Below, one piece after another: positions 1 through 41,489 of a stretch of DNA of 41,489 bases. The notes under the pieces were generated by a model. That model did not search any database. It saw only the letters and a list, made by a program, of their open reading frames with translations, and was not told the DNA's origin. The stretch's first letter is position 1. Each line of letters begins with the position of its first letter. The position numbers were made by a program, and so were the translations under genes. This stretch comes from Atractiella rhizophila (lineage: Eukaryota): the NCBI GenBank assembly GCA_021432655.1, contig MU271587.1, forward strand, positions 1 through 41,489, given 5' to 3'.

Positions 1-104
1 TAACCCTAACCCTAACCCTAACCCTAACCCTAACCCTAACCCTAACCCTAACCCTAACCCTAACCCTAACCCTAACCCTAACCCTAACCCTAACCTAACC
101 CTAA
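1..104. repeat. Telomeric repeat array (TAACCC)n; chromosome end
   Basis: 15 perfect TAACCC units (1-90), then a TAACC variant, TAACCC and TAA. C-rich strand at the 5' end, as expected for a left telomere. Confidence 0.98.
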
Positions 105-194
105 GAGGTAGGAACAGGAAGATGGGGGATATCCTTTAGTCATAGGAGAAAGTGTGAGCTCTTTTAGTTGTGGTGTAGGGTGACCATGGGTACG

Positions 195-219
195 CCTAAC
201 CCTAACCCTAACCCTAACC
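195..219. repeat. Interstitial telomeric tract, about 4 units
   Basis: cctaaccctaaccctaaccctaacc, same orientation as the terminal array, 90 bp inside it. Confidence 0.9.
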
Positions 220-399
220 TCGCTCAAAGAGCCATGAGCAACAATGAAATATGAATGCTTAAGGAGAAAATACGGACAGGAATATGCCCTCTAGCCTTAT
301 CCATATCTTCTTGAGGTATATCAGTCTCGTTCTTGATGAGAAGAAGAAGCTTTTGATAGCAAGTAGGCGCCTTTATGATTTTGAGCCGTCCTAAGATGG

Positions 400-824
400 T
401 GTTAGGGCTGACACTATGTGCGGTCGCCGATAGGCGATGCGTCTGTAGTGGAGGTAAACCTAAGGGAATAGTATGGCATGAGGAGACTAACCTGTAGTGG
501 AGGTAAACCTAAGAGAATACTCTGAGGTCACCACCACTACATCTCGATGTATATATACATATGTAAAAGCACTGCCATAAACTGTATCATAAGTTCTTGA
601 AACATGTAAGATAGCTAGATCAGGAAAGCAATAAAAGGAAAACTCGGAAATAAGACATACTGAGCAGTACAAGTGGGAAAAGGACAATAAAGCAATAATG
701 GAGACGGTGCAGACCGGCGAAATGTTTAAGGTTTGCTGAGCGGCGATTAGTGTGAGACAGGGAAGGCGGCGATCAGCGAGAACGTGAGCAAAGCGGCGAT
801 GGGCAGGTACGTGGCCCTATGGCA
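400..824. mobile_element. LTR-like repeat, copy 1
   Basis: Begins TGTTAGGGC and ends GCCCTATGGCA (TG...CA, imperfect inverted termini). About 400 bp are repeated at 2678-3078. Internal direct repeat GTAGTGGAGGTAAACCTAAG occurs twice. Confidence 0.65.
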
Positions 825-2677: not shown

Positions 2678-3078
2678 TGTTAGGGCAAACACTATGTGCA
2701 GTCGCCGATGGGCGATGCGTCCGTAGTGGAGGTAAACCTAAGTGAATAGTATGGCATGAGAAGACTAACCTGTAGTGGAGGTAAACCTAAGAGAATACAC
2801 TAAGGTCACCACCACTACATCTCAATGTATATATACATATGTAAAGGCACTGCCATAAACTGTAACGTATGTTGTTTCTTGAAACACGTAAGATATCTAG
2901 ATCATGAAGCAACAAAGGGAATACTCGGAAATAAGATATACTGAGTAGTACTAATGAGAAAGCATAATAAGGCGAAAATGGAGACGGTGCAGACCAGCGA
3001 AATGTATAATGTTTGCTGAGCGGCGATGCGTGTGAGAAAGGGGAAAGCGGCAGACAGTGCGGGCATGAGCAAAGCGAC
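2678..3078. mobile_element. LTR-like repeat, copy 2 (right end truncated or diverged)
   Basis: Starts TGTTAGGGC like copy 1, is colinear with 400-800 with scattered substitutions, and loses similarity after gagcaaagcg. Confidence 0.65.
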
Positions 3079-24462: not shown

Positions 24463-25216
24463 TGTTTTCAGCTTCGCTTGAGTGACAATCGAGGTCAATG
24501 GATGCTTTTATGTTGACTGATTGAATATCCCTGCGAATTTCCGCGTCCCTCCTCTGCTTGTATCCGGGCACTGCTTATTGACTTCAAGTGGTCACGAATC
24601 CCCGCCTTTCGCCCTTCGCTTGTCGTCAACTTCTTTAGACCCAGTCAGACAACATGAACATTGTGAACCAGTCGAATCTACCATCACCCCCATTCGCCCG
24701 CCAAGAGACGCACGCATTCCGGCGACTGCTACCATGCTTGCTTCAACAATCGTGTGTACTTAGATTTGTTCAAGCCAAGTTATTTCGTCTTTCGAGTTGT
24801 GAGTTGTCTCGCCCAAATGCTCCTCCTGGTGTACTATATTGTAGCGATCGTGCAATCTCTCTGGCATTAATAACGCCACAATAGTTTGGGTTTAAGACGG
24901 TAGCAGCCTGAGCCTAGGTTTTAACCTCGTGCAACCATTGCTTGTACATGAGTGTGAGCGCTTTCACAACTCAGTATCCTTCATAACTTGATATATGCAT
25001 AGTTTTGGAAGTCGCACTCCATTAATGGCGCTCGTTTCTAGCAAAGGATAATTATCCAGTACCCCGAACAACGTTTGCCATCACCTTAAGGTGAAATCAT
25101 GCTGCAACCAAGAGAAGTTGATAAATGTCGCTGGATAGAGCATACAAACTTTGCATTAACTGACTTGTATCACGGACTCTATCATGTGCTACAATTAAAA
25201 AACACTTCTCAACTCT

Positions 25217-27596
25217 TCAACCAGCATACTTAGATCGTGCTCTGATTTCCGCTCCCTTCTTATAGAAAATCTAGACAAGCGCATTAGTGCAATGGAACGG
25301 AGCAAAAATGTGCTCACATAAAGAATTGGGATCATGAGTGCACTCAAGCCGGCCAACAGACTGCATCCACCACCGATCGTCAATCGTTTATACATTGCCC
25401 TGGCAAACAATGGGAATGCCGCTCCTGAAGAGGACCGGAAGAGATCGTTTCCAGCAAGTAGAGAAGCTGCATATTTTGGGAAACACATCGGAAGATAAAC
25501 GATGCAAGATTGGAAAATGAGGAAGGCGCCAGCTAGAAGTAATGAATGGGTTATTGCTTTGTGAAACAAGCCACGAGACACATACGAACGAACAGTCCTG
25601 CCGCAATAACCGGTCCAATCCAGTGAATATCGTCTCTTGAGAGCCAACCTTTCCTCTCATGAGCTAGGTCCACTAAGCGATGTAAAGAAAACTTACCGAA
25701 AAGTAAGAGAGAAACTGGCGGAAACAGAGAGCCAAACAGCCCAATCTCAAGCCGTTGCTCGGGGGTAAACATTCCTGTCCGCATCACGAGTGGCTCAATG
25801 TGATACTTTTGATAGCAGATATATCCTATGAAGGCCAATGCAGCCCCGATCGCAATGCTGAGAAAGGGTAAACCCGCCTCTCCAAGGTTGAAGCCGTGAA
25901 TTTCAGTAAACACCAGCGGGAATGCTTCGAACCACCTAGAATTCTTGTCAGAATCAAGTTCAACCAAGTGCGTGGAAGTCACTGACAAGTAGAAAATAGA
26001 GTAAAGGAGAGCGATGTAAATGTTAATGAAGAGAACGGCGGGTTCAAGTAAGAGGACGAAGGGTCTGACGAGGTTGTCGAACAAGATGTCGGTAGTGGAA
26101 AGCTTGGCCTGATCGATCTCGCTTTGGCTCCTCAACTTCTCGTTTCCAGTGATCTTCCTGAGCCTCTGCGCACGTTTAAGGAGGATGGTTGGTGCATACG
26201 TTTCGGGAAGGATGAACGAGAGCACGACAAGTCCGAAACCAGAGATCCACAGCAGCTGTGGCGTCCAAAAGTCAACCAAAGAGCATCACAATGACTGAAG
26301 CCATACTTCATACAGACTCCATTTCCAACCATTGGCTTGGACGGCGAAACCTTAGTACCATTTAGCACGAGCTCGCAAGTTGCGCAGAAACACCAACCGC
26401 TAACAATCGGACCCAGGACAGGACCAAGGATGGCTAATACGGTTGAATCATCAGTGTATATTTTCGCAAGAATTTGCGAGGATACGGACCTCCGCAACTC
26501 CTAAACAACTATGTCAGTTACAGCCCCTAGATTGAAATAAGTACTGACCAAAGAGCAATCGCATAAGGAATCTTCATTGGAGCCCAGACTGTTTCCAACA
26601 TGGGCAAGTGCTGCATTGCAGAGAAAGCAGGAACTCACTGTCCGCAAGACTCGCGCCGCCGGTCGCCAGTGCAGGGCTACCAGCAAATCCAGTGAGAAAC
26701 CTCATGGCCATCAGGACAGAATATTTGTCCGCGGTGACAGCTGGAACTTGCAAAACAACGAAGAGGAAAAGGGTGATGATGTATACTGGGTTTCGCCCGA
26801 TAGCTGGAATTTCTGATAAAGGTGACAGAATCATAGGTCCTACAAACCATCGACTCAGCTTACAAAATCCAAGTGACCAATTATGCTTGAATCGACGTAC
26901 CGACTCCATATCCCAGCACAAAAAGAGATAGTCCCAAAGTTCCTTTGGTGGTCGACACGTGAAACGTTTCTGAGACCCCAGGAATCGAAGGAGCGCTTTG
27001 TCACAACGCTGTAAGCTAAAAAACCGCTGGAGCGGGAAGATAACTCACTAGATAGCGGAGCCAATGTAAACTGACAATTTTCAAAAAGTCAGTCAGCTGC
27101 GCGAACTGATGATATAAGGAACCGTACCAGAAAATGTTAGGAGCATGATAGCAGCCGTGGTTACTGTTTTCTTCGCAAAGCTCCAGTTCTGAGGGTTCTC
27201 AGGGTCGTTCTCGTCATACCAATCGACAAGATTAGGATCGATGGCTTTCTTTTCTCCCTCTGGCTCTTTCTCATCAAGCTTCCCCTTCTCGACGTCACTC
27301 CCATCAGCAGCAAGTGTAGCATTCGAGGCGGTCCTTTCCAACTTCCTTCCTTTTATATCCTCCTCTGATTGTTCTGCATGTCGATTCTTGACATCCTCTT
27401 CCTCGATCGGGGCAAGCGTTGCGTTCGACCCTCGCGAGAGAGGATCTGACGCTGGTTTCGGGAGGTAAATGGCAGGAACGACGAAATCAGGACGCTCTTC
27501 AGGGTGAGCAAAGAGTCGACCATTCGAAAGGTAATGCAGAGACACTCCGACAGCTGAGTCCCGAAGGACGGAAGCTAAAGCTTCAGAGTAGGACAT
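25217..27596 (-). CDS. MFS multidrug transporter, DHA1 family (Mdr1/Flr1/Caf5-like)
   Basis: [60 protein letters not shown] and [14 protein letters not shown]; many short introns. Confidence 0.93.
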
Positions 27597-27662
27597 TGCG
27601 CCACGAATAAAGAATAAAACGAGTTCGAGTTCGAGTTCGAAACAATTCAAAGAACGGGACCC

Positions 27663-27670
27663 TTTTATAT
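27663..27670 (-). promoter_or_regulatory. Putative TATA box of the MFS gene
   Basis: ATATAAAA on the minus strand, about 70 nt upstream of ATG 27596. Confidence 0.45.
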
Positions 27671-29332
27671 CCATGCCACTGGGCGAGGCCGTTTTTCAGC
27701 CATTAGGGAGAAAGGCGTAAGCGTCGGACACAACATCGGGCAGACTTGAAGGTGCATGTCTGACAATTCATTCACAAACGGCTCTAAAGTCGAATCACAG
27801 GGATGAATCATCCGAATTCGGTGTTTAGGGGAGGTGCGCGATCGCGTCAGGATACTGTCAGCACACCAACATGAACGAGAAACCTCGCTCTTTCCTGCCT
27901 ACAGGCGACATATGCATACGCCTATGCTTTCAGCTTAGGGTTCCAACGATGCCAGTGCAGACCAGCGTAGCTGCAGATAGGAAAAATTCGGCCTGCTGGA
28001 GAAGTGGAGGAAGTGGAGGGGAGGAAACCTCCACTCCGCCGCTGTCTCTCACCGTGATCGGGATTGGTAATCATTAAATCATTCTGTTGGCAGAGAAGTA
28101 TATGGTCGCGTAATGGATATGACTGGAGAAATAAAAGCTACGGCTGAATCTACGACGCGACCTGGCAAGCATAAAGAAACCGAATTCGACTATAGTCATT
28201 GATCTGTCACGTCCCGGCTTTAGAAGGGGTCCAACAACTTAGCTAGCCGAGATACAGTGAGACTGTAGCTGGTTCGGGATGGAAAGGAGAGGGCATTCCA
28301 AAGTCAACTTGACCGACAAAATCCGACGCAGGGGCCGTTCATATCAGATTAAACAATGAAAATCTTGCTAATAATAATAGGTCAGGAGAGTGGCGGCCTC
28401 CTGAAACCCGTTAGGATCCTTCATGGGAACGCGATTGTCTATGCTCGACGTGTAATTTCACTGATGAGTTTTAATCCCAGCAAACATGCTTCCCAACTAA
28501 CGATTGGGATGGCGCATATCCTCAAGTCCGATTCTGCTGATGGACTCTGAGATGCGGATAATAGCGGTCACGATTGCACCTGACAAAGCAATGACAAGCA
28601 TTCGCCAACTGATGGTGATAGTGACACAATACTCCCGTGGTTACAGGGTTTTGAAGGGGTCAGAGAGCAAAAAGAACAACTAAGGGCTCTTAGCGCGAAG
28701 ACAGCGAAGACAGCGAATTCTAGTACCGAAGGAGAACGAGTGTGACCGAGAAAGGAGAAACGAAGTGAACGGAGTTTGCGATAAAAGGACTCAGCGACCG
28801 CTTAGCACGTTGAGCGAAGTAGATTGACGGAAACCTTTAAAGCTTGACTGCCGAGCAGGCAGCATCGGCGATAACCCGTTTGTTACGCAACACAATAGAA
28901 CGGCGTCTGCAAAACAATCCTGTGTAAGTACTCGCAAGAGATTCTTCTCAGCCCGGTCTCAGAATTGCTCAGACCGCGAGACATTGGGCCTCCGTTCCTC
29001 CTTAGTAAGAGCAAGCTTGACAGGACAAGGATTTGAAAAGACAACAGAGTATCCAAAAGTGCTGTGTAGCACTCACCTCATCAGTACCCGGCCGACATCC
29101 TCTTTGCTGTGTACGTAATTCTGTAATGGATGGTTCGTCTGTTTAAGCTCCAGTTGGAGATGACTCAAACCGGCAATCACCCAGATTCAAAATTGCCGCA
29201 AACTAAACTACGGGTTCACGGTGGCCAACGGAGACACGACTTCGCGTCATCGTAAATTCGTGCTCAATCCACGCATAAAACGAGATAAAGCCACTGTCAA
29301 GCAGCCCACCATCCCTCAAAGCAGCAACAGAC

Positions 29333-29969
29333 ATGTCTTATCCTCCTCCCAGCTACAACTCTAACCCTTACCCGCCACAGAACTACCCCCAAGACGGCTT
29401 CCAGAACGTCGGGGGTTTCGCTCCGCCAGGCCAACAACAACATCCAAGTCCAAGTCAATACCAACCCTATCCCCCTCACGGTGACGGGGAGAATCAAAGC
29501 TACTATGCCCAGCAGCAGTCTTCATATCAGTCCCAGCAACCTCCTTATCCTCCTCAAACTTCGCCCTATCCACCCCACGACCAGTCTGGTCAACAACCTC
29601 CTTATCCTCCTCAGGGACAGCATGGTGCAGGGGATGATCGTGGTTTAGGCAGCGCATTCGCTGCCGCCGGAGGCATTGGAGGCCTCGCGAAGCTCGGACA
29701 ACAATATTTAGGACAAGGATCTTCCCATGGAGGCTCGGGACATGGTGCTCCCCTAGGTGGCGTGTTGGGAGGCGTAGCAGGGTTGCAGGGAGCGAAACAT
29801 AAGAAGGACAAGAAGGATAAGAAGAAGGACAAGTACAAGGATGGGCATAAGGTCCGCACTTTCACTTGAAGTGCAGGCCAAATGGTGACCGTTGTACCCG
29901 CTACAGAAGGAGAAGAAACATAAGAAGCGCGGAGGCTCCAGCTCATCGTCCTCTTCTGATTCGGATTGA
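29333..29969 (+). CDS. Small low-complexity protein: P/Q/Y-rich N-terminus, glycine-zipper-like middle, K/H-rich and Ser tail
   Basis: QQPPYPPQ repeats, DRGLG...GGVLGGVAG; an intron after DGHK leads to KEKKHKKRGGSSSSSSSDSD*. Confidence 0.8.
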
Positions 29970-30444
29970 AGCAAGGAGGCTTGAAGGAGCTGTTAACCGG
30001 CCATCTGTCGCGCATCTGTCAATGAACTACGGTGATGTTTGGATTCTGAAGTTCAAGTCTTGTTGTTGTGGTGGGAAAAGTCTCACGTTGTACTATTGCT
30101 TCATAAATTGTTTGGAATGTTAAAGTAGCTTTGTATCAAGAACGTGGGGGTCATGACGACATCGTTGAGGATTCCACTCCGTGGCAAGCATTCCTCCGCG
30201 CATTTATTGAATGCACGGCCAATCAACTAGTCCTTTCACTGTCGTCTCCGGGACATAGCCAAAAGGTGTTTATATGCAAGTACGCGCTCGGTTGAGAGTT
30301 CAGCGTAAAGAAAAAGCCTCCTGACCTTCGAGAACAGGTGGAAGAGGGCACAGCCAAGTATATTACTTCAAATTCCAACGGACCATTTGTTGATCTAACG
30401 CTTTGCGAGCAATCAGCAGGGGAATATCAGGTTCAGTTTCCGGC

Positions 30445-32052
30445 ATGCCTGACGACGTTGCTGTCGTCCATTTCTACGAAACATTTCTTTTGCCAAAGCG
30501 GCCAATGTCTGTACTCTTCAGCTGGACGCCATGCTTCAAGAACCGCACGAATACCCGAAGAGTTTCTTTGCACTGGGTCTCATCCATGCCAACCTCAACT
30601 CCTACGGAGTGGAATCTGAATGGTTACAAAGTTCAGTCGGTCGACTCATACGATCCCGAACTTCATATTTTTTTTCTCCCAAATCTGCTAGAGGAGTTCG
30701 GGAAAGCGTGGACTGTTCAGGATTCTCTTGATTTTTTCATTTCCAACTCTTCCGAATACGATTTATGGAGCGAGGAGGTGTCGATAGCGCAAAGTCATCA
30801 TTTCGTCATTGATGAGGCACCAAAGGTCATCCTTTTAGAGTTTCCTTCCAAACTTTCAACAAAATGGCGGTATTCTCATGGGGTATTTCAACTTTCAACA
30901 CTTCCATTGCGATCGCCAATCCAAAATCTCCCACCAGAGACATTAGATTTGATCCTAGAATATGCCGTGCTTGCTCATTCTTCCTTTTTCGAATCCGCCG
31001 GGACAGTTTGTCGACTCTGGTATGAGCGTACGCAGACACTTGAACCGGAACCTGCTCATTCATGGCAAAAGATTGTCCAGCTTAAATCGTACCCCGAATT
31101 TCGAAGAATGTGGAACAGATTTGATTACAGCGCTGAAGATCGCGACTCAGATATCGACCTTTTAAAAGCCTTCCGAGTCGCAGAGGGATTCCAACCGTTA
31201 TTTACTGTGATCTGGCTGGAGTATCCGCCATCTTTTCAGCCATTCGAGCAAACATTTTTAGAAACTTCAACATCATTGACGAGCATCAAAACTTTGAAGC
31301 TTAGTAAGTGGCCACAACGCTTCATCCAGGCATTTATGCAACGCACGAGGTCTTGGGACACGCTAGAAGCAGTGTATTTGTCGAGCACTTTAGATTCTTT
31401 GAACCAGGACATAGACTTGTCAGAATTTCGATATGCAGTCTGTCCACGCAGACAGCGCAGCTTCGCTATTGTTGATCTCGAAAACATCTATTTTGCGCCA
31501 TTGTTTTGCACCATGATACCGCGAGATTTCATCAGCTTGGAGGGGTGTTTGTTATCCGACTTAGATTTCGATTACACGGCAACGGCTGATGAAGCTTCTG
31601 ATAATTCCCTCACTGGCATCCACATTTCATTAAATCCTTCCAAATGGTTCAAGGATATAGACTTGAACGTCATCCGATTCCCAAAACCATTCATGAGTTT
31701 CAAAGTTTATCCTCACCTCCAAGTTTTTAGAATCGACGGCGGCCATGAGAACAGCAACATCGTTCCATTTGACTTGTTCTCTATCCTCCAGAGCCACAAC
31801 TTCTTCCCACGGGTGCTGATCCTTTGTTGTTGCTCCATCAATTCTCAAGGAGCTTTGGACTATGTCACCGCGTCCTTATCTCGGCCTTTCGGCGACGAAG
31901 AGTTCAAATTACACATTGAACTCCTATTTGGACAATGGGAAGAGAAGATCTTCAGCATAATAAAGACGAGGGTGCAGGAAATCGACGGCACGTTCCTCTT
32001 AGGTCCTTCGGATGATGACAGGATCTTTGTGTTGAAGGAGTGTACTGACTGA
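30445..32052 (+). CDS. F-box-like protein with an N-terminal extension and LRR-like C-terminus
   Basis: Long uninterrupted ORF with an internal F-box SPIQNLPPETLDLILEY...VCRLW. First ATG is at 30445; the true start is uncertain. Confidence 0.7.
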   Translation: MPDDVAVVHFYETFLLPKRPMSVLFSWTPCFKNRTNTRRVSLHWVSSMPTSTPTEWNLNGYKVQSVDSYDPELHIFFLPNLLEEFGKAWTVQDSLDFFISNSSEYDLWSEEVSIAQSHHFVIDEAPKVILLEFPSKLSTKWRYSHGVFQLSTLPLRSPIQNLPPETLDLILEYAVLAHSSFFESAGTVCRLWYERTQTLEPEPAHSWQKIVQLKSYPEFRRMWNRFDYSAEDRDSDIDLLKAFRVAEGFQPLFTVIWLEYPPSFQPFEQTFLETSTSLTSIKTLKLSKWPQRFIQAFMQRTRSWDTLEAVYLSSTLDSLNQDIDLSEFRYAVCPRRQRSFAIVDLENIYFAPLFCTMIPRDFISLEGCLLSDLDFDYTATADEASDNSLTGIHISLNPSKWFKDIDLNVIRFPKPFMSFKVYPHLQVFRIDGGHENSNIVPFDLFSILQSHNFFPRVLILCCCSINSQGALDYVTASLSRPFGDEEFKLHIELLFGQWEEKIFSIIKTRVQEIDGTFLLGPSDDDRIFVLKECTD

Positions 32053-32310: not shown

Positions 32311-34507
32311 CTAAGAGGCATACTTTGATCGTGTTCTGATGCCCCTTTCTTGTAGAAAACTAGAATCCTGGTTGACAGTTGGCCAAGGAAACGAAATCAT
32401 TGGCTCACATAAAGAATTGGATTCCTGAGAGGGCTTAAGCGAGCAACAAATTGCAACCTCCACCAATAGTCAGGCGTTGATATTTTGCGCGATCGAAGAG
32501 CGGAAAGACAGCGCCGCTCGTCGACCTGAACAACGTGCTGCCAGCGAGGAGGGAAGCGGCATATTTCGGAAAGCACATCACTGGGAGTAGATAGGCGACC
32601 AAAGTTTGGAATATTAAGAATGCACTGCCTGACAGATGATTGTAGTTCAGTGATCGTGGATGTGTAGACTCGAAGATGTATGTGTAATACGGGTTAGAAG
32701 TATTGATAATGTGCAATGTTTACGTTGAAGTACTTATCTGATTCCATGTTCAATTTCCAATCTGTCTCAGTCATTTCTCCCTCGCACACAACCACCATCT
32801 GTCTTTACTCGTAGCGTCTTTTAATCGTTACGCATTGTTGTAGTGTGCGAGGTGAGTAGCCCTTTACTTTCTTACATCTTACTTATGCCAATGGGCACTC
32901 TTCAGGTTCCTTAACATTCCCCCTTTTGAGAGCCCCTGTTATCGTATAAGAGCACCCGGACTAGAAGGTAGGCTTAGGCCTTCTTAGTCCACATTCTTGT
33001 CGCTTATTTCTGTCACAGAGATATTGCTACTTGACTCTGTTCGCACCCGTTAGACGTGCGACTAGTTTGGGTGTTTTTAGGTATGCTTCCTTATGTCTTA
33101 TGGTATTCCTATTATCTTATGCAACTATGTGTTTTTAGCCTTATCAATTCACGGTCCGCTTGCCCCCTTATCGGCTCACCCCCGTTTGGATCCGTGCCAG
33201 GTCCAAGCTCGGGTTATAGTATGAGCAAACAGTTCTGCTGAAATGACAGGTCCGATCTAGCGAATATCAGCTCTCGAGAGCTAGCATTGAATGTGATCAG
33301 TACTCCCCCTCTGCCGGAAAGGGAAGGCGGCTACGAAAAAGTAATAGAGATACTGGAGAACATAGTGAGCCTAGAAGACCTACGAAGGTATCTGCAGCTC
33401 AGATGGCGATGCTCATGAAAGGCAAGCCCGCTTTCCCCAGATTAAAACCACGAAGCAGAGTAAGCGCAAACCCTTCGTACTACCTAATTTCTGCGTCGGA
33501 ATGGACGTCAATAAATTGATGCTAAGGTTTACAGGGAAAATATGGAGTACACCTTTGTAACGCAGGTGTTGATGAAGAGAACCGCGGGTTCTACCAAGAG
33601 GACAAAAGGTCGGATGAGGTTGTCGAACAAAGAAGGGAGTGGGAGATAGTTTCGCATGATCACTATCGCTTTAGCTCCTCAACTTCTCATTCCCATTAAC
33701 CTTCCTAAGCCTTGGTGCGGGCTAAGGAGAATAGTCGACGCATTGGAGAGAAGTGCACTATCGGCCAGGATTGCACCTCGTGTCAAGAAGTCAGGAGAGC
33801 CAGCGAACCCAGTAAGTTCTCATAAGCACGGAGTAGTTATCGGCAGTAACGCCAGGAACTTGAAGAACGCCTAAGAGGAAGATCGTGATGATGTAGATAG
33901 GATTCCCCCAACTGCAGGAACTTCGGACAAGGGAGAGAGGATTATCTGGCCTAAACTCCCTCTCGTCATTGACACATAGAACGCCACGGTGAGCCAGAGA
34001 CAGGAAGCACTCACTAGATCCCGCGATCGATGCACACATTTAAGATAATTAACATAATTCCTCCTGTTGCCATTGTCTTTTTGGCAAAGCTCCATTTCTG
34101 AGAGTTCCTTGGATCATTCTCATCATACCAATCGACAAGGTTGGAATCGATCGCTTTCTTCTCCCCATCTAATTTTTTTGTCTCAAGCAACCCGTCTCTA
34201 AGTATACTCGGTTCGGAAATATCGAATCTGAAGTGATCAGTGTCAATCCAACTACATTCTTACATTCTTGGTAAGTCCCACCTTACCTGACTGTTTCGCG
34301 ATCTGATCTTCAGCTAGAGCGAGTGTAAAATTCGAAGCTCCTGAGATCAAATCTGAGCTAGGTTTCGAGAGGTATATGAGAGGGACTACGAAACTAGGGA
34401 GCTCTTGGATTGAGGGAGGAGACGACCGTCAGGTAGTGCAGCGACGTTCCCTTTGAAGTAGACGTGAAAGCTTTCGGCACCACGTTTGCGGCAGAAATGT
34501 GTGCCAT
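32311..34507 (-). pseudogene. Decayed DHA1 MFS transporter, paralog of 25217-27596
   Basis: Fragments [66 protein letters not shown] and RSKYAS*. Contains frameshifts, stops, deletions and an inserted LTR. Confidence 0.88.
32683..33218. mobile_element. Solo LTR, 536 bp, with a 5-bp target-site duplication
   Basis: GTATG|TGTAATAC...GGGTTATA|GTATG, with TSD copies at 32678-32682 and 33219-33223. Terminal CA reads TA. Removing the insert restores colinearity with the intact MFS paralog. Confidence 0.8.
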
Positions 34508-34575
34508 CACTTTCTCCTAAAAAGATGAAGGAGAAATCCTTTCCTTTACATTTCATCCAACCGCCAAAGGTCTAT

Positions 34576-35871
34576 TATGCTTTCAGGGCTTGTTGTTGGT
34601 GATCGTAGTGAGCTGACTACGAACTCAGACTAAGTCACGCCTGGAAAACGCCTGCATATTGACGACGATCTCCTCCGCTTGTAGATTCCTGCACCAGCCT
34701 CATCATGGATGGTGGTCCACCCGCAGAAGAGGACTTTGACAAACTCACCATCGAGGACCGTATAAAACACAAGGTGTGTCTTCGCACCTCCTCCAGGTTG
34801 GTGCTGATTGCGTCGAGTAGAACTGGAAAGCACGTCTATCCGGATATCATGCACTTTCCTCTTTATTCTATGCAACGACACTCCTACGACGGACTCTCGG
34901 AAAAGACGCGAAAGCTTGCGAGTACGACTTTTGCGACAGAAATTTATGATATCGCTCCTCTAACCAGCTCCGATTGACACGAACCAGCTGATTCATCCCG
35001 AGTTAGATTAATATTACACAATCCCTTCATTTTGCTGCAGCAAGAATTACCTATGCATTAACATCTGAAAACTTATAAGCAAAGGTAACTATGAGCACGC
35101 TTGCGTCCACTTATAGCTATGCGCGGCGGCGAGTACCGTGCTGTTAGAACAGAAAAACCATATCCGACGATGCTAAATTATGGGCCGACACAATTCTTCC
35201 GCTAACACCTGCAGCCATGAATGCAGGTCAAACGACGTAGAGGCATGCCCTGTGACTAAGAATAAGCGGCGCCAGTACAACTCGATGTACAATGTAGGAA
35301 TCTCACAGCATGCCCAAAACTGATCTGACAGATCATTTTGGACTTGAAATTGTTATGCAGATATCCTTCCATCAACTTCGACTGAAGCTGGCCATTGGGA
35401 TGCACATGAAGAGAGATGAACCGAGCGGATGATGGCTAGAATATATGCATGCGTAGATCGCATGCTTTCCTATCATAGAAACAAGGAAATAATGAACGTA
35501 TGAAACCTAATACTATAGCAACTTGTAAGAGGTTTTGGCGTTGAGCAGACGTGACGGGGACTTCCTCATCAAAAGCGGCTGTGAGGAAGGGAAGAGGCTG
35601 GTGATGAAGCATGGGCATAAAGCTCACCGCTGCTGTACGACGTAACATCATTCAAACTCCATCGACATCCATTCAGCTTGCCAGCTCCTTGCGAAACGCG
35701 ATGCATCGATGTCCCTTCATCCCCCTTCGGGTATGCCTTCTGGGCTTGTTGGTGATCGTAGTGAGCTGACTACGAACTCGGACTAAGTCACGCCTGGAAA
35801 ACGCCTGCATATTGACGACGATCTCCTCCGCTTGTAGATTCCTGCACCAGCCTCATCATGGATGGTGGTCC
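34576..35871 (+). repeat. About 140-bp direct repeat (34576-34718 and 35732-35871) of the STU2 promoter/5'UTR and first codons
   Basis: Near-identical sequence ending atggatggtggtcc in both copies; a few substitutions and a 3-nt indel. Confidence 0.95.
34705..34949 (+). other. STU2: Detached 5' exons of STU2/XMAP215 (start of TOG1)
   Basis: MDGGPPAEEDFDKLTIEDRIKHK|NWKARLSGYHALSSLF (intron 34774-34820) matches the XMAP215 N-terminal signature. Similarity is lost after ~34880; TGA at 34947. Confidence 0.85.
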
Positions 35872-38800
35872 TTACAGCGGTATTTATTGGGATGACATGC
35901 AGGCAATTCGGTCCGAAAATCGTTCCTCCCAAGCTCGTCCTCTCCTCCCTTCCGCGCATCTTCGCACACAACGACAAGACAGTCCGAGCGGAGGGAACGA
36001 CGCTAGTCTGCAACCTATACGCGTACCTAGGTCCCACTCTCACATCCGCTCTGTCCACCCTCGATCCTCCTCTTAAGCCCATCCAGCTGACTGAGCTGCA
36101 ATCCAAATTTTCCGAACTCGACGCGTCTGGCGCAGGAGCGGGGACCGCGAAACAGGAGAGATTGACGCGTGCGCAGACGAGGGATAAGATTGTACGCGAG
36201 GCTGAAGGACAATTGGAGGGCTCGTCCGGTGGTGGAGATGGAGCGGCTGGAGGGGAAGAGCCAGAAGCGGAAATGGACCCGATGGACTTGATGGAAGCCA
36301 AACCGATTATGAATAAGCTGCCTGGCGAATTTTGGGCTAAGATTGCGAGCTCGAAGTGGAAGGAAAGGAAAGAGGAAGCGCTCGAGCCTTTGCTTGAGAT
36401 ACTGAACAATACCCCAAAACTTGCGGAGGGTGATGATTACGGCCAATTGGTGAAGGAGCTCGGGGTAAGAGTGGAGAAAGACTCGAACGTCATTTGCGTC
36501 ACTCTGGCTGCTCAATGTCTAACCGGACTCGCCAAAGGTCTGCGATCATCGTTTGGACGATACAAAGATGGGTGTTACAAGTCGTTGTTGGAGAGGTTGA
36601 AAGAGAAGAAGGCAAGTGTGGTAGAAGCTTTGGCTGCCGCCCTAGACGCGGTCTTTGCCAGCACGACCCTCCCAGATATACTAGAGGAGACTATTCCTTA
36701 TCTATCTCACAAGACACCAGCCGTCAAAATCAGCACCTTGCAGTTCCTCTCCCGCGCTCTCTCAACCACCACCGTCCCGCCTCCCAAACCTCTCCTCTCC
36801 CCATTCGCTGCTGCGATGGTCTCCAACATCGGAGACTCAAATGGCGACGTACGTGAAGCGGCACAGGAATCTTTCGCAACGCTCATCAAGGTGGTTGGTG
36901 AACCTGCTCTGAAAGCAGAGTTAGATGGTATGGATGATATAAGGAAGGCGAAGGTGATGGAGTGGAAAGATAAAGTCACCGTCAAATACAAGCCGAAACC
37001 CGATCTGAAAGCGTTGGGAATCATTGGAGGAGGCGGAGGAGGAGGCGGAGCGAAAAAGATGCCCCCTAGTCTGGCAAAGAAGATGGCGCCTAAGGCTGCC
37101 CCTCCGCCGCCGAAGGAGGAAGACGACATGCCTCCCCCACCTCCTCCAAAGGCAGCAGTCAAGAAGCCCCCGGCATCAGCCAAGAAACCTGCAGCAGCAG
37201 CACCTCCCGCTAAAAAACCACCAGCTGCGGCAGCACCTCCTCCGGCGAAAGCTGGTGGAGGCGGGAAGGCACCAGAGCCCATTAAGTTCAAGATGTCCCA
37301 AGAAGACGGGGAGGCGAGAGGCGAAGCGGAACTTCCGGCTCCTATCGTTGCAAGTTTGGGAGAGGGAGCTTGGAAACTCAGGTTGGAGGGGATGGATAAC
37401 CTCGTGCAGTGGTTGGAGGGTGAAGGGGCGGAGATGGAGGCTGAAGTTGTGGTGAGGTATTTGAGGAAGAAGCCGGGGTGGAAGGAGAGCAATTTTCAGG
37501 TTAGTCCTCTCCATTCCATTTTCTGTTTCGACAAAGGACTTTGGACGCTTGCTAATCTTTTGCCGTGGTTTTGTGCAGGTTTATGGAAAGATGGTTGCGG
37601 CCTTTCAGACGCTGGCCGAGCGTAATCCCACTTTCTCGAAAGCAGTCGCTTCTCTCGTCATTCCGCCCATGGTCGATAAACTAGGCGATATCAAACTTAA
37701 GAAGCCTTGTGGGGATGCGCTAGCTGTGATTGCAGAGAAGACGTCGCTTCAATTCGTATTGAGTCAAGGTGGGCGTCTTCCAACCCCCGTTCACCGCTGT
37801 GACACTAATGACAAACAAACAGCATACGAGCCTATCGCCTCACAGAAAGCACCAAAGGCTCAAGCCGACTGTTATGCTTGGGTAGAGATCGTGCTAATGG
37901 ATTTTGGGATTGTGGGACTTGGGATAAGGGACTTGATCGAGTGCTTGAAGAACGGATTGAAGAGCTCTAACGCCGCCGTTAGAAGTAGCGCTACGAAGGC
38001 GTTGGTCACTTTGAAGCTATTTGTTGGCAACGGTATGTCTGATCCGTCATTTTCCCGTCGCTTCGTTGGGATAGTGCTGAGACGCACGTGTAGATATCAT
38101 GAATTTTGTTCAAGACCTCAATCCCCAACTTCTCACGACCATACAGTCCGAGTTCGCCAAAGTTGACGGTGCTCCGGCCCCCGAACCAATCAAGACGTCA
38201 GCTGACAACGCTGCTCCTTCTTCCGGTGGAGGGGGAGGAGCTGGAGGCGGCGGCGGCGGGAAAGGAGCAGATCCACTGGACGAATTATTCCCTCGTGTTG
38301 ATCTCGAAAAGCTCGTCAGCTCTTCCAATGTGTCAGCTTGCAATGATGCGAACTGGAAGGTCCGGAAAGAAGCCCTGGAGAACATTCAGTCGATTCTGGA
38401 GGCGAACAAACGATTGAAGCCAAATTTGAGTAGGTTGTTCCTTGGTTTTACTGACAGCCAAGTACTTACATTGCGGGCGGAAGGCGACATCTCGACCGCC
38501 ATCAAGCAACGGTTGGGAGATAGCAATAAAGTCGTCCAAGGGCTTGCACTAGACATCCTAGCTCGCATCGCGAACGGAATGAACGAACCTTTTCAAAAGT
38601 ACGCCAAGACCTTTGTCGCTGGTGTGTGCACTGTCCTCGCAGATCAGAAGGCATCCGCTCGTGCCGCTGGTGTCACAGCTTTAACAGCGATGGGCGACAA
38701 CGCTGGATTGGAATGCATGATAGGAGCGCTGGGGACGGCTTTAGAGGTACAAAATCCAGTCCAAAGGAAGGAACTGCTCCAGTGGCTAGAGCCTCGGCTC

Positions 38801-41489
38801 GTTGATAACGCCGCTGCTGCCAACTATGACCTAACACCACTAGGGGGACCTATCATTTCTTGCCTTGAAGATCGCAATGCGGAGGTAAGGAAAGCCGCAC
38901 AAGCTATCCTCCCTGTCGTCGTCGCCCGTGCCGGATATAGCTACGTGATGGATCAGACGAACAATTTGAAACCCGCATCACGGGCAGCCGTCATTCCGAT
39001 GATCGATGCCGCAAGAGGTGGTGCTCCTGATCTTCCAGCAATATCTTCGAACAAAGCGGGAGCTGCGCAATCTGGTCCACATTCCAAGCCATCTGCAAGA
39101 CCCCTGTCGACTAAGCCAGGCGTGAAAACACCTGCATCGGCTGCTCCTCCTTCTCCACGCAACCCAGGGACCCGTCCAACAAGCCCCGAAATGGAGCAAC
39201 CAGCTTCTCGAGCAGTGGGAGGGAGGAAGTTGGTCTCGAAACCATCAAAAATTACCTCTCCCTCCGCCAAATCAACTCAGAACTTCGCTGCGATGCCTGC
39301 GCTAGAGAACGAGCCACCATTGCTGAGCGCAGATCCGAAATTCAAAGCCTCGAGGAAGTTGAAGGAGACCGGCCCTCTTAAGTGGAGCGTCGATGGATCA
39401 GTTCGACCCGATCAGATTGACTACCTCCACCAACAAGCTGCTCCTCACTTCAGCGCTTCCCTGCTCGCTCTTCTTTTTAGTAAAGGTCATCATGCCGACA
39501 AGGATTTCTTGTCTGGTGTAACACTATTGGACGACTGCTTGACAGATCCCATGGTCTGTGAGAAATATGACGTGACATGGGAAGAGATGAAGGGTCGCTT
39601 CTTCGCTAATAGCGATATCATTCTCAAATACGTCACTGTCCGGTTTACGGACACAAACACAACCATCGCTATCAAGTGTATTGAACTGTTGGAACACTTC
39701 TTGGCTGTGACTGCAGAAGAGGAATATACCTTCTCAGATTACGAGGCCCAAATTTTGCTTGGTGGTCTCGTAGCTAAGGCAGGTCCACTTTTCACTCATT
39801 GATTAGGTTAGGTTTCTAATGGTTTATGTGCAGGTTGGTGACTCAAAGGAAACGATTCGTCAACGGATACGAGATTTATTCCACGCTGTTTGTCGATTAT
39901 ACCCATTCAGCAAAGTGTTCACGTTCCTGGGAGATGTTGGTCTGAAGTCGAAAAATGCACGCTGTCGATCTGAATGTGCCGAAGAGCTTGCTTCGATGCT
40001 TCAGAAAAACGGCATGTCCTGCTGTCACCACCCAGAGAAAGCCTTCCCAGCACTCGCGGCGCTCATTTCGGATCGTGATCCCTCTACTCGAAATGCGGCG
40101 CTAACAGCTCTATCGCAAGCTTACGTTCTCATCAACGATGAGCTCTTCTCCTATATTGGAAAGCTCCCCGATAAAGATCAAACTATGCTCAACGAGAGAC
40201 TAAAGCGCACCCCCAGCTCTCCCTCCAAATCGGGGTCCTCGTCTCAACTTCCCACAGCGCCGTCTTCACGTCCGGAAAGTAGGACAGGTCTGCGAAAGTC
40301 GATAGGTATCGCCCGATTACCAGCAAGTGCCAAGAAACGCTCAAGCATCGCAATCCCCAATGGCGACAACATTACTGCCGCTCTCCAGGAAGCCAGTAAC
40401 AACGCTACGACGCGGCTCCCAACCCGTCCACCGTCTTCGGGAATCTCGCGACTCACACCGAAGGGAGGATTCGGGATGCGTCCACAGTCGATGTATCAAG
40501 CTGCGACACCAAAACAGCGAGCCCCTTCACCGCCAATGTCAGAGCCAGAGGAACCGCAACATGATAACGAGGTCGAGAACGCCATTACAGAAATCTTCAG
40601 CAGCGATCCGAATCGAAGTACAGATGCATTAAAGGCTATTCAAAAGATGATTTCCGTATCCCCTGATATGCTACGGCCAGCGTCTACGCAACTGACGGAC
40701 GCCATCACGGTGCAGATGAATTTGGCTTTTGAAGGGCTTGATGCTTCGACCTCGCAAAGCATTCTCCGCCTCTGCAAGCACCTCATGCAAACTCTTTCTA
40801 CATTCTTCGATCAGAAGTCTCTTGCTAGATCTGTCGACCGGCCTTCACTGTCAAGATTACTCGCGGAGCTTACCAAGAGACTATTGGAAACCGCAGATAA
40901 TTCGACCAGCGAGTCGATAATGAGCCTTTCCAAAGTGCTTAACATGGTCCTGATTCGAATATTCCATCATGCGGATCAGAGCACTTGTTTTGGGTTCGTT
41001 TGCCGCCAACTTCTCCTCTATTGCTCTGACATTGCAACAGTGCACTTTTTAGTGTCCTGGAAACTGCCACTGTGGATCTACGGGAGCTCAGAGGGCCCAC
41101 GCTTCAAGAGCGTGCAAAGTACGCAGAACTCGTCATGAAGGTCTGTCGCATGTTCTTTCGTGTGTTCGCATTACTGATTGCTCCTTGAAGTGCTTGTGGA
41201 AGATCTCCAAGACGGTAAAAGAGTCGTTGGAATCCGAAGCGTTAGATCCCAAAGTCCTGCTTCTTGATATCGATCAATTCCTCCAAGTCATCCCTCCCGC
41301 AGAATGGCGACGAAGATCAACAGACAACGTTCCGTTAGCCGACATGCCTCTACGAACCGTGAAGACAATCCTTCAGCAAGTGGTTTCGGTGATGGGAGAC
41401 GCAGTGTACGACGAGCTCTCCCTCATCGACAGCCCTGAGAACAGCTTTGTATATCAATACCTCTTCCGCCTCCTCAACAATTCCAAGAC
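35862..41489 (+). CDS. STU2: XMAP215/Dis1/Alp14/Stu2 microtubule polymerase, multi-TOG; 5' end rearranged, 3' end outside the window
   Basis: IFAHNDKTVRAE, SSKWKERKEEALE, AWKLRLEG, GWKESNFQV, DANWKVRKEALE, KSKNARCRSEC and ELVMK|CLWK. Open frame maintained across 7 short introns to the window edge. Confidence 0.92.

What the first reader, a model, noticed from the sequence alone, without database searches (positions are those of the whole stretch)
34576..35960. STU2/XMAP215 5' end is split and duplicated, with part of TOG1 missing and two possible rescue routes
Seen: the promoter plus ATG occurs twice. Copy A carries exon 1 and the start of exon 2 (HKNWKARLSGY) and then runs into unrelated DNA. 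Copy B stops after MDGG and abuts an intron-like remnant (CATGCAG acceptor at 35902) before QFGPKIVPP, which lies mid-TOG1. The cognate ATG at 35858 is now out of frame (72 aa), while an overlapping ATG at 35862 is in frame. A GA|GTACGA donor at 34922 spliced to 35903 (981-nt intron) would also be in frame and rejoin the true N-terminus. Known: XMAP215 proteins are normally essential and TOG domains have six HEAT repeats. Inference: roughly 100 aa of TOG1 are lost while the remaining 5.6 kb show no lesion, so this is a naturally TOG1-crippled polymerase, a very young pseudogene, or a misassembly.
Basis: partly seen in the sequence, partly recalled or inferred. Interest (0 to 1): 0.75.

Follow-up and report, generated by a model that had tools for sequence, protein, structure and literature searches.

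The report
Broken STU2 start on chromosome-end contig
The start of a microtubule-polymerase gene (STU2/XMAP215) is scrambled in this short chromosome-end contig, but close relatives express the intact gene, so this is a private broken copy or an assembly error.

Summary
A 143/140-nt block (promoter, 5'UTR, first 14 coding bases) occurs twice, at 34576-34718 and 35732-35871. Exon 1 and 49 nt of exon 2 follow copy A. A 31-nt intron tail and the rest of STU2 follow copy B. About 123 codons of TOG1 are absent from the whole contig.

New evidence:
- The window is a complete 41.5-kb contig, with a telomere at base 1 and STU2 cut off at the other end.
- Spliced RNA-type contigs from two other samples (X3, X4), about 99% identical, run from 34869 and into 35903 through sequence the window lacks. 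The intact TOG1 mRNA therefore exists.
- In DNA contigs of the same species (X1), the 861-nt spacer continues directly into the promoter. That makes the spacer the gene's native upstream DNA. No X1 contig crosses the exon2/spacer junction.
- 25 of 29 listed exonic differences from X1/X3 are synonymous, so the downstream body has not decayed.

Verdict: the arrangement is private to this contig. It has three non-native junctions within 1.3 kb. I favour a recent real rearranged chromosome end made by template-switching repair, with an intact STU2 elsewhere (about 0.47). A misassembly is second (about 0.33). A sole-copy TOG1-less polymerase is unlikely (about 0.08). Both proposed rescue routes are arithmetically correct but have no supporting data.

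The parts
1..107 (.). Telomere repeat (TAACCC)n at the contig start. STU2 therefore lies about 35 kb from a chromosome end in this contig.
   Evidence: (family D1)
32397..34571 (-). Block 'L': a fragmented MFS-transporter-like gene, paralogous to 25195-27695. Its 5' end abuts copy A of the STU2 promoter.
   Evidence: repeat families D4, D6, D7, D9; ORFs broken across frames. One search gives a weak MFS_1 match for the paralog only, 24.8 bits, below the cut-off.
34576..34718 (+). Copy A ('P') of the duplicated block: promoter, 5'UTR and the first 14 nt of the CDS (ATG at 34705).
34705..34773 (+). STU2 exon 1 (MDGGPPAEEDFDKLTIEDRIKHK).
   Evidence: matches P0002 residues 5-20; X3 joint.
34774..34820 (+). 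Intron 1, 47 nt, GT..AG. It is spliced out in the X3 contig.
   Evidence: joint 34771>34819, cut +2.
34821..34869 (+). Native start of exon 2 (NWKARLSGYHALSSLF plus 1 nt). Native sequence ends here.
   Evidence: the X3 contig runs on unlike the window behind 34869 for 85 letters, and the X1 piece ends at 34869..
34870..34870 (+). Junction J1. This single base belongs to neither flank in the laid contigs. My reading of the piece ends may be off by one.
   Evidence: X3 loose end starts with C; X1 record 3 fits only from 34871.
34871..35731 (+). Spacer 'X', 861 nt, non-coding. It is the native upstream region of STU2, not foreign DNA. It has no long ORF, no RNA family, no tRNA and no other copy in the contig.
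   Evidence: X1 record 3 fits 34871-35410 exactly, and two X1 variants run from 35660 into the promoter..
35732..35871 (+). Copy B ('P-prime') of the duplicated block, with ATG at 35858. It differs from copy A by 3 substitutions and a TTG indel.
35872..35902 (+). 31-nt 3' tail of a native intron (junction J3 at 35871/35872). Its acceptor CAG at 35900-35902 is the one used in X3 and X4 RNA contigs.
   Evidence: X3 and X4 loose ends 'before 35902'.
35903..41489 (+). The rest of STU2: the last third of TOG1, further TOG/HEAT domains and 7 introns. It runs off the contig end, about 215-227 codons short of the orthologs' C-termini.
   Evidence: P0001, 1732 aa; (the exon model reproduces P0001 exactly); (X1 record 6 continues 1371 nt beyond 41489).
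35858..36076 (+). 72-aa out-of-frame ORF opened by the cognate ATG of copy B. The in-frame ATGs at 35862 and 35892 lie inside it.
34922..35902 (+). It is in frame, but no data support it.
   Evidence: One search shows no such joint among the rows listed; 4 joint rows were not shown.

Best explanation
This is a real but private and non-functional rearranged 5' end of one STU2 copy, sitting on a chromosome end.

The native order in the species is spacer X, promoter P, exon 1, exon 2, the rest of TOG1, then the rest of the gene. In this contig the order is telomere, 34.5 kb 'L', P, exon 1, 49 nt of exon 2, one extra base, X, a second P with 14 nt of CDS, a 31-nt intron tail, then the rest of the gene.

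That gives three non-native junctions within 1.3 kb: L|P at 34575/34576, J1 at 34869-34871, and J3 at 35871/35872. About 123 codons of TOG1 are lost.

I infer a one-ended break inside STU2, repaired by break-induced replication with template switches (MMBIR type). Reading from the retained gene body towards the telomere, synthesis would have:
1. copied P and X;
2. switched to exon 2, exon 1 and P, probably on the homologue, because the two P copies differ by allele-like changes;
3. switched to another subtelomere (L) and run to the telomere.

The product can make at most a 57-aa N-terminal stub, from the copy A promoter. From the copy B promoter it can make a 72-aa out-of-frame peptide or, inefficiently, a polymerase without TOG1. 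The cell would live on an intact STU2 on the homologue or elsewhere.

What is shown: the anatomy, the existence of the intact mRNA in close relatives, the native X-P adjacency, and the lack of decay downstream. What is inferred: the mechanism, the ploidy, and the presence of an intact copy in the source strain.
For: - Anatomy.
- The window is a whole contig with a telomere at base 1, and the gene is cut at the other end. In X1 the gene continues 1371 nt beyond the window (record 6).
- An intact mRNA exists. X3 contigs skip 8 of 8 introns of the window's gene part and carry unlike sequence behind 34869 (85 letters) and before 35902 (178 letters). The last 30 letters of the latter, joined to the window, read ...CVTAMGSIV-R-QFGPK by my hand translation. 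That parallels P0002 ...SVTVLKEII-R-LFGPK. X4, from another study, shows the same loose end before 35902.
- X is native upstream DNA. Two X1 variants (depth 128.1 and 130.6) start at 35660 and run at least to 35770, inside P-prime. X1 record 3 matches 34871-35410 with 0 differences.
- In X1 one contig (depth 302.9) covers 34665 or earlier to 34869, so P continues into exon 1 and exon 2 without a branch (my reading of 'from_end').
- The three junctions are clustered, a nearby sequence is copied in, and a deletion accompanies it. Duplications mixed with deletions are what the start of the abstract of PMC2621351 names, and complex events at sub-telomeric breaks what that of PMC13065848 names (both search listing only).
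- The event is recent. 25 of 29 listed exonic differences from X1/X3 are synonymous, against 24% expected at random. There is no frameshift or stop in the 1732-aa model.
- A contig that reaches only 5.6 kb past the junctions into shared sequence is what an alternative chromosome-end contig would look like (inference).
Against: - No reads or contigs of the source strain itself were identified. X1 carries the other allele at all 29 listed exonic sites, so none of the three junctions is independently confirmed.
- In X1 no contig bridges J1. The depth of bin 34698-34980 is fully accounted for by one piece ending at 34869 and record 3 starting at 34871. Record 3's first 72 letters do not fit the window.
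- J3 in X1 could not be settled. The 'from_end' values argue against it, while bin-depth sums allow a contig across it.
- The allele-like differences between the two promoter copies fit a haplotype-mixed assembly error equally well.
- Microhomology at the junctions could not be checked, because the native flanks are not in hand.
- A short contig ending inside a unique gene is also typical of poor assembly.
Confidence: 0.47

Rival explanations
1. Assembly artefact. The source genome has only the intact order X-P-exon1-exon2-TOG1. In a heterozygous sample the assembler placed pieces of two haplotypes in series, giving a false duplication of the promoter. It dropped the piece carrying TOG1 HEAT A-D and joined the result to a subtelomeric block.
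For: - None of the three junctions is seen in the only same-species DNA run. No X1 contig crosses 34869/34871, and P runs into exon 2 unbranched.
- The two promoter copies differ by 3 substitutions and one indel. X1 itself shows two variants just upstream.
- X1 shows contigs at about half depth (102.9-141) beside contigs at 253-325, so the species or sample looks heterozygous.
- The contig is only 41.5 kb and ends inside the gene.
- The gene body is undecayed.
- Only the intact form is seen in RNA-type contigs.
Against: - Three junctions without shared sequence within 1.3 kb are hard to obtain from overlap or de Bruijn assembly. Misjoins normally happen inside repeats.
- There are no Ns or gaps in the contig, and the sequence quality allows an unbroken 1732-aa model.
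- A single chimeric read would not normally carry two or three junctions at related places.
- X1 is probably a different strain, because the window's allele is absent at all 29 listed exonic sites. Its lack of the junctions therefore does not test the source.
Confidence: 0.33
2. Sole, working copy. The strain is haploid and lives with a TOG1-less XMAP215. The protein would be translated from ATG 35862 or 35892 on a transcript from the copy B promoter, or rescued by a 34921/35903 splice.
For: - In-frame ATGs exist at 35862 and 35892, and an in-frame GT...AG pair exists.
- The remaining 5.6 kb is intact and shows a purifying-selection pattern.
- Four further Pfam TOG/HEAT regions remain.
- In fission yeast Alp14, TOG1 and TOG2 have separable roles. 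[quoted passage not shown] Partial function without TOG1 is therefore conceivable.
Against: - The first AUG of that transcript (35858; A at -3, G at +4) is out of frame and in a better context than 35862 (T at -3) (by eye).
- A 981-nt intron is 12 times the longest of 8 real introns, and its donor GTACGA lacks the T at +6 found in 6 of the 7 GT donors.
- The purifying-selection pattern only says that the break is young.
- The contig ends inside the gene, so the copy is not even shown to be complete.
- Close relatives all show the intact form.
Confidence: 0.08
3. Old, species-wide two-locus arrangement. The species would have an intact STU2 plus a conserved N-terminally truncated paralog behind its own copy of the promoter.
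For: Bin-depth sums for X1 over 35547-36112 can be fitted with a contig of depth about 250 running across 35871/35872 (my arithmetic).
Against: - The X1 contig carrying exon 1 and exon 2 extends at least 54 nt into the shared promoter stretch without a break. A second exit from that stretch should prevent this.
- X3 RNA depth is 0 over 34981-35829, and X3 shows a loose end rather than the intron tail before 35902.
- An old pseudo-paralog would not keep 25 of 29 differences synonymous unless it were functional.
Confidence: 0.05

Closest known systems
XMAP215/Dis1/Stu2/Alp14 microtubule polymerases, long basidiomycete form of about 2100-2200 aa (for example P0002, 'microtubule associated protein [Pseudohyphozyma bogoriensis]', and P0005 from Meredithblackwellia eburnea)
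   Same: The 529-aa query matches 331 proteins of this family at E<=0.001 among 8000 candidates scored. The best non-self hit is P0002 (50% identity, E 1.7e-125). Pfam XMAP215_CLASP_TOG scores 182 bits in 4 stretches, alongside CLASP_N and CEP104-like_TOG. The exon 1/2 peptide aligns to the orthologs' N-terminus.
   Different: In this contig the first TOG is split. Roughly the first 36 residues sit behind one promoter copy, and profile positions 158-230 sit behind the other. About 123 residues between them are absent. The last 215-227 residues lie beyond the contig end.
Complex rearrangements by break-induced replication with template switching (MMBIR/FoSTeS), including telomere capture at broken ends
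   Same: Breakpoints are clustered, a nearby sequence is copied in together with a deletion, and a chromosome end is involved. These features are taken from the starts of the abstracts of PMC2621351, PMC4215184 and PMC13065848 in the search listing only.
   Different: Junction microhomology could not be examined. The event itself is not confirmed in the source strain's reads. The use of the homologue as template is only inferred, from 3 substitutions and one indel between the two promoter copies.
False duplications of heterozygous regions in genome assemblies (recalled from the literature; no paper looked up here)
   Same: There are two near-identical copies with allele-like differences in a short contig from a sample that looks heterozygous. 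The junctions are unsupported in another run of the species.
   Different: Such artefacts usually give simple tandem copies of both haplotypes. They do not usually give a permuted order with loss of 0.4-0.6 kb and three junctions without homology.

Membership tests
XMAP215/Stu2 TOG-domain polymerase | Sequence orthology to family members along the protein | tested here: met
   331 hits at E<=0.001 among 8000 scored candidates. All named hits are STU2, microtubule-associated or TOG proteins of fungi. PF21041 at 182 bits, cut-off 27.1.
XMAP215/Stu2 TOG-domain polymerase | Complete N-terminal TOG1 (six HEAT repeats; full PF21041 profile) | tested here: not met
   only profile positions 158-230 of 230 are present at the start of P0001, whereas P0002 covers 1-230; the counterpart of P0002 residues 37-159 is found nowhere in the contig.
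XMAP215/Stu2 TOG-domain polymerase | Complete C-terminal region | not testable with these tools
   The contig ends at 41489, inside the gene. The orthologs have 215-227 more residues. The X1 contig continues 1371 nt, but its letters were not available.
XMAP215/Stu2 TOG-domain polymerase | Tubulin binding and polymerase activity | not testable with these tools
   This needs biochemistry or genetics.
MMBIR / template-switch complex rearrangement | Two or more clustered junctions, with copied-in nearby sequence plus a deletion | tested here: met
   There are three junctions, at 34575/76, 34869-71 and 35871/72. The copied X-P block is natively contiguous in X1.
MMBIR / template-switch complex rearrangement | Microhomology or short insertions at junctions | tested here: inconclusive
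   One unassigned base lies at J1. The native flanks (the 72 letters left of X in X1, and the upstream part of the intron) were not printed.
MMBIR / template-switch complex rearrangement | Junctions present in the DNA of the organism (reads of the source strain) | not testable with these tools
   No whole genome is held.
Assembly false duplication | Junctions absent from reads of the same sample | not testable with these tools
   The source sample was not identified among the runs. In X1, no contig crosses J1.

The most novel reading that the evidence does not exclude
The strain is haploid and this is its only STU2. It is a natural XMAP215-family polymerase that has lost HEAT repeats A-D of TOG1. 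It would be translated by leaky scanning from AUG 35862 or 35892 behind a duplicated promoter, and would still support growth. That would be a natural experiment on how many TOG domains a five-TOG polymerase needs.
Probability: 0.07. Interest if true: 0.6.

Novelty: new member of a known kind. Interest (0 to 1): 0.25.

Why it matters
The main value is for annotation. The 1732-aa model P0001, which starts MTCRQFGPK, should not be read as evidence that this fungus has a TOG1-less XMAP215. Close relatives express the full N-terminus.

If the arrangement is real, it is a compact, sequence-resolved example of a three-junction template-switch repair. It would have captured a new telomere and destroyed one copy of a probably essential gene in a basidiomycete yeast. 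That would imply the source strain is diploid or carries a second copy.

If it is an artefact, it is a useful warning about short subtelomeric contigs from heterozygous fungi.

Tried and rejected
- Whole-genome search: no genome is held for this window.
- Earlier findings of this scan: nothing by place or by sequence.
- Cluster members of P0001 (the cluster has 2 members): the query could not be made because the database was switched off.
- Protein search for short fragments (54-174 aa) overlapping 35904-36200, to recover the missing TOG1 part from the same species. It gave 2 hits among 14 candidates, both distant (53% and 49% identity).
- Metagenome scan with a 23-nt exon pattern: 0 matches.
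- No RNA holder was listed for the stretch. X3 and X4 nevertheless behave as RNA contigs. No RNA of the window's own allele was seen, so expression from copy B is untested.
- J3 (35871/35872) in X1 is unresolved. The 'from_end' values argue against a branch there, while bin-depth sums over 35547-36112 fit slightly better with extra cover. The 302.9-depth contig being laid in two places could also explain that extra cover.
- Idea that exon1/exon2 plus P was inserted between L and X with a 5-nt TCTAT target duplication: rejected. X1 record 3 fits only from 34871, not from 34867.
- Idea of a simple tandem duplication of the 1153-nt unit X-P-exon1/2: rejected as sufficient. Copy A is preceded by L rather than X, and copy B lacks exon 1/2.
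- Idea of an engineered knock-in with vector or marker DNA in the spacer: rejected. The spacer is present in the X1 contigs, has no ORF of 72 aa or more, and matches no RNA family or tRNA.
- The spacer has no other copy in the contig.
Full report
**What is in the sequence**

Reading 34000-36600 and the repeat search confirm the duplication. There is a 126-nt repeat at 34593-34718 and 35746-35871 (99% identical). A 23-nt repeat lies directly to its left, at 34576-34598 and 35732-35754 (87%). My alignment joins them into one block of 143 and 140 nt with three substitutions and one TTG indel. The start-to-start spacing is 1153 nt. Left of the block the two flanks are unrelated.

The block holds the STU2 promoter, the 5'UTR and the first 14 coding bases (ATG at 34705 and at 35858).

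Behind copy A come exon 1 (to 34773), a 47-nt intron (34774-34820) and exon 2 from 34821. Behind copy B come 31 nt ending in CATGCAG (35872-35902), then exon sequence from 35903 that reads R-QFGPKIVPPK.

The public gene model of this contig (P0001, 1732 aa) starts at ATG 35892 with MTCRQFGPK. An exon model with seven introns reproduces it exactly.

**What is missing**

tBLASTn with the first 300 residues of the two best orthologs finds three pieces in the contig:
- residues 5-20, at 34726-34773;
- residues 21-39, at 34821-34877;
- residues 160 onward, from 35901.

Nothing corresponds to residues 37-159 of P0002, which is 123 aa. Pfam's XMAP215_CLASP_TOG profile is matched over positions 1-230 in P0002. 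At the start of P0001 only positions 158-230 are matched.

**Context**

The window is a whole contig. The protein database lists P0001 on a single contig of 41,489 nt, the window's length. It starts with (TAACCC)n at 1-107 and ends inside STU2. The orthologs have 215-227 more residues after the last motif encoded.

Directly left of copy A lies a fragmented MFS-like gene on the minus strand (32397-34571). It is a paralog of 25195-27695.

The best relatives of the protein are Pucciniomycotina fungi at about 50% identity. No close relative is in the protein collection.

**Evidence from public runs**

One search found five runs, and four were laid. All are assembled contigs, not raw reads.

*X3 and X4 behave as RNA.* X3 is labelled '?' and comes from another organism label. 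Its contigs skip all 8 introns of the gene part in the window: 34774-34820, 37500-37578, 37769-37822, 38033-38093, 38430-38483, the GC-AG intron 39779-39833, 40994-41040 and 41141-41190. The boundaries were refined.

X3's 5' contig covers about 34643-34773 plus 34821-34869. This follows from my depth arithmetic: 191.7 x 125/283 = 84.7, which equals the observed bin value. It then runs on for 85 letters unlike the window.

A second X3 contig fits from 35902/35903 onward and is preceded by 178 unlike letters. The last 30 of those letters, joined to the window, read ...CVTAMGSIV-R-QFGPK by my hand translation. This parallels P0002 ...SVTVLKEII-R-LFGPK.

X4, from a different study, is also spliced at 38033-38093. 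It has the same loose end before 35902, with one letter different. X3 has zero depth over 34981-35829.

A transcript with the full TOG1 therefore exists in very close relatives. The CAG at 35900-35902 is its genuine acceptor.

*X1 is DNA of the top-ranked organism label.* Its share of words is 0.83.
- Record 3 (612 nt, depth 102.9) matches 34871-35410 with no difference. Its first 72 letters do not fit the window.
- The contig covering 34767 (depth 302.9) has both piece ends at least 103 nt away and ends at 34869.
- The depth of bin 34698-34980 is exactly the sum of these two pieces: 302.9 x 172/283 + 102.9 x 110/283 = 224.1, as observed. No X1 contig lies across 34869/34871.
- The 302.9 contig reaches 34665 or further left. 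It therefore runs from the shared promoter stretch into exon 1 without the break that a second exit (to the intron tail) should cause in a k=31 graph. The k value is recalled, not from a call.
- Two X1 variants (depth 128.1 and 130.6) start at 35660 and run at least to 35770, from the spacer into the promoter block.

The 861-nt 'unrelated DNA' (34871-35731) is therefore the gene's own native upstream region. The native order in X1 is X, P, exon 1, exon 2.

I could not settle whether J3 (35871/35872) or the L|P junction occurs in X1. The relevant rows were among those not shown, and bin sums are ambiguous.

*X1 is probably not the source strain.* In 37576-39564 it carries the same 12 exonic differences from the window as X3, and neither run shows any further exonic difference there. 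Random loss of one allele of a heterozygote would not give this pattern. X1 does look heterozygous elsewhere, with contigs at 103-141 beside contigs at 253-325.

**Age of the break**

Of the 40 difference rows shown (128 more were hidden), 33 lie at 36134 or beyond. Four of these are intronic, 25 synonymous and 4 non-synonymous. Random changes in this CDS would be 24% synonymous. The one listed difference in exon 1 (34767, AAA to AAG) is also synonymous, by hand.

The 5.6 kb behind the break has therefore evolved as a working gene and shows no decay. The rearrangement is either very recent or not real.

The two promoter copies differ at about 2-3% of positions. That is more than a very recent duplication within one chromosome would give. 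The copies look like two alleles.

**The rescue routes**

ATG 35858 opens a 72-aa out-of-frame ORF. ATG 35862 and ATG 35892 are in frame.

The first AUG has A at -3 and G at +4, whereas 35862 has T at -3 (by eye). Most ribosomes should therefore take the wrong frame.

A splice from 34921 to 35903 is in frame. However, it needs a 981-nt intron in a gene whose 8 introns are 47-79 nt. Its donor GTACGA lacks the T at +6 present in 6 of the 7 GT donors. No joint of that kind appears among those listed (4 rows not shown).

No RNA of the window's own allele was available.

**Explanation**

The arrangement has three non-native junctions within 1.3 kb: L|P, exon 2|X with one unassigned base, and P-prime|intron tail. 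It contains a copy of the native upstream block X-P and has lost about 0.4-0.6 kb. The lost DNA comprises the 123 codons, the head of the intron whose 31-nt tail remains, and any further introns there; its true length is unknown.

I favour a real, recent event at about 0.47. A one-ended break in STU2 would have been repaired by break-induced replication that switched template three times and finally copied another subtelomere out to the telomere. This accounts for:
- the clustering of the junctions;
- the templated copy of X-P;
- the allele-like differences between the two promoter copies, through use of the homologue as template;
- the telomere 35 kb away;
- a contig that extends only about one long-read length into shared sequence.

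The starts of the abstracts of PMC2621351, PMC4215184 and PMC13065848 name such complex events, including events at sub-telomeric breaks. I saw only the search listing.

On this reading the copy is null or nearly so, and an intact STU2 must exist on the homologue or elsewhere.

A haplotype-mixed misassembly is the main rival, at about 0.33. No junction is confirmed anywhere, the sample type looks heterozygous, and the contig is short. Three homology-free misjoins in 1.3 kb without any gap would nevertheless be unusual.

A sole-copy polymerase without TOG1 (about 0.08) cannot be excluded. In Alp14, TOG1 and TOG2 have separable roles (abstract of PMC6724690). Nothing here speaks for this reading, however.

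An old species-wide truncated paralog (about 0.05) fits poorly with the X1 and X3 data.

**Comparison and novelty**

The gene is a clear ortholog of the long basidiomycete XMAP215/Stu2 proteins. In this contig it fails the defining feature of a complete TOG1, so the model P0001 should be flagged as partial or disrupted.

As a phenomenon it is either a new instance of a known kind of complex repair product or an assembly error. Interest is low to moderate.

Noticed in passing
window 1-237: Terminal (TAACCC)n array at 1-107, and a second short telomere-like run at about 197-219, behind 90 nt of unique sequence.
   Followed up: no
window 400-762 and 2678-3042: Direct repeats 2.28 kb apart, in three collinear blocks at 85-92% identity. 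They look like a duplicated subtelomeric element.
   Followed up: no
window 25195-27695 and 32397-34571 (minus strand): A pair of MFS-transporter-like paralogs, 73-86% identical in blocks. The telomere-distal one, next to STU2, is broken into short ORFs in several frames and looks like a pseudogene.
   Followed up: partly
window 33000-33282: Summed contig depth in X1 is about 2700, against about 300 elsewhere, with many loose ends in X1, X3 and X5. This points to a high-copy repeat or mobile element next to the MFS-like fragment.
   Followed up: no
window 39779-39833: A GC-AG intron in STU2 (donor GCAGGT). It is spliced out in the X3 contig and is required to reproduce P0001.
   Followed up: yes
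window 30394-32052 (+) and 29279-29869 (+): A 552-aa open frame and a 196-aa Q/P/G-rich open frame. Neither has a Pfam match at E<=0.01.
   Followed up: partly
window 35556-35715: In the spacer, the only X1 contig over 35556-35659 differs from the window by three small deletions and one substitution. From 35660 on, X1 has two variants of equal depth. The STU2 upstream region is therefore much more polymorphic than the coding body.
   Followed up: partly
runs X3 and X4: X3 has no recorded kind and X4 is labelled 'DNA?', yet both carry spliced STU2 contigs. They behave as transcriptome data.
   Followed up: yes
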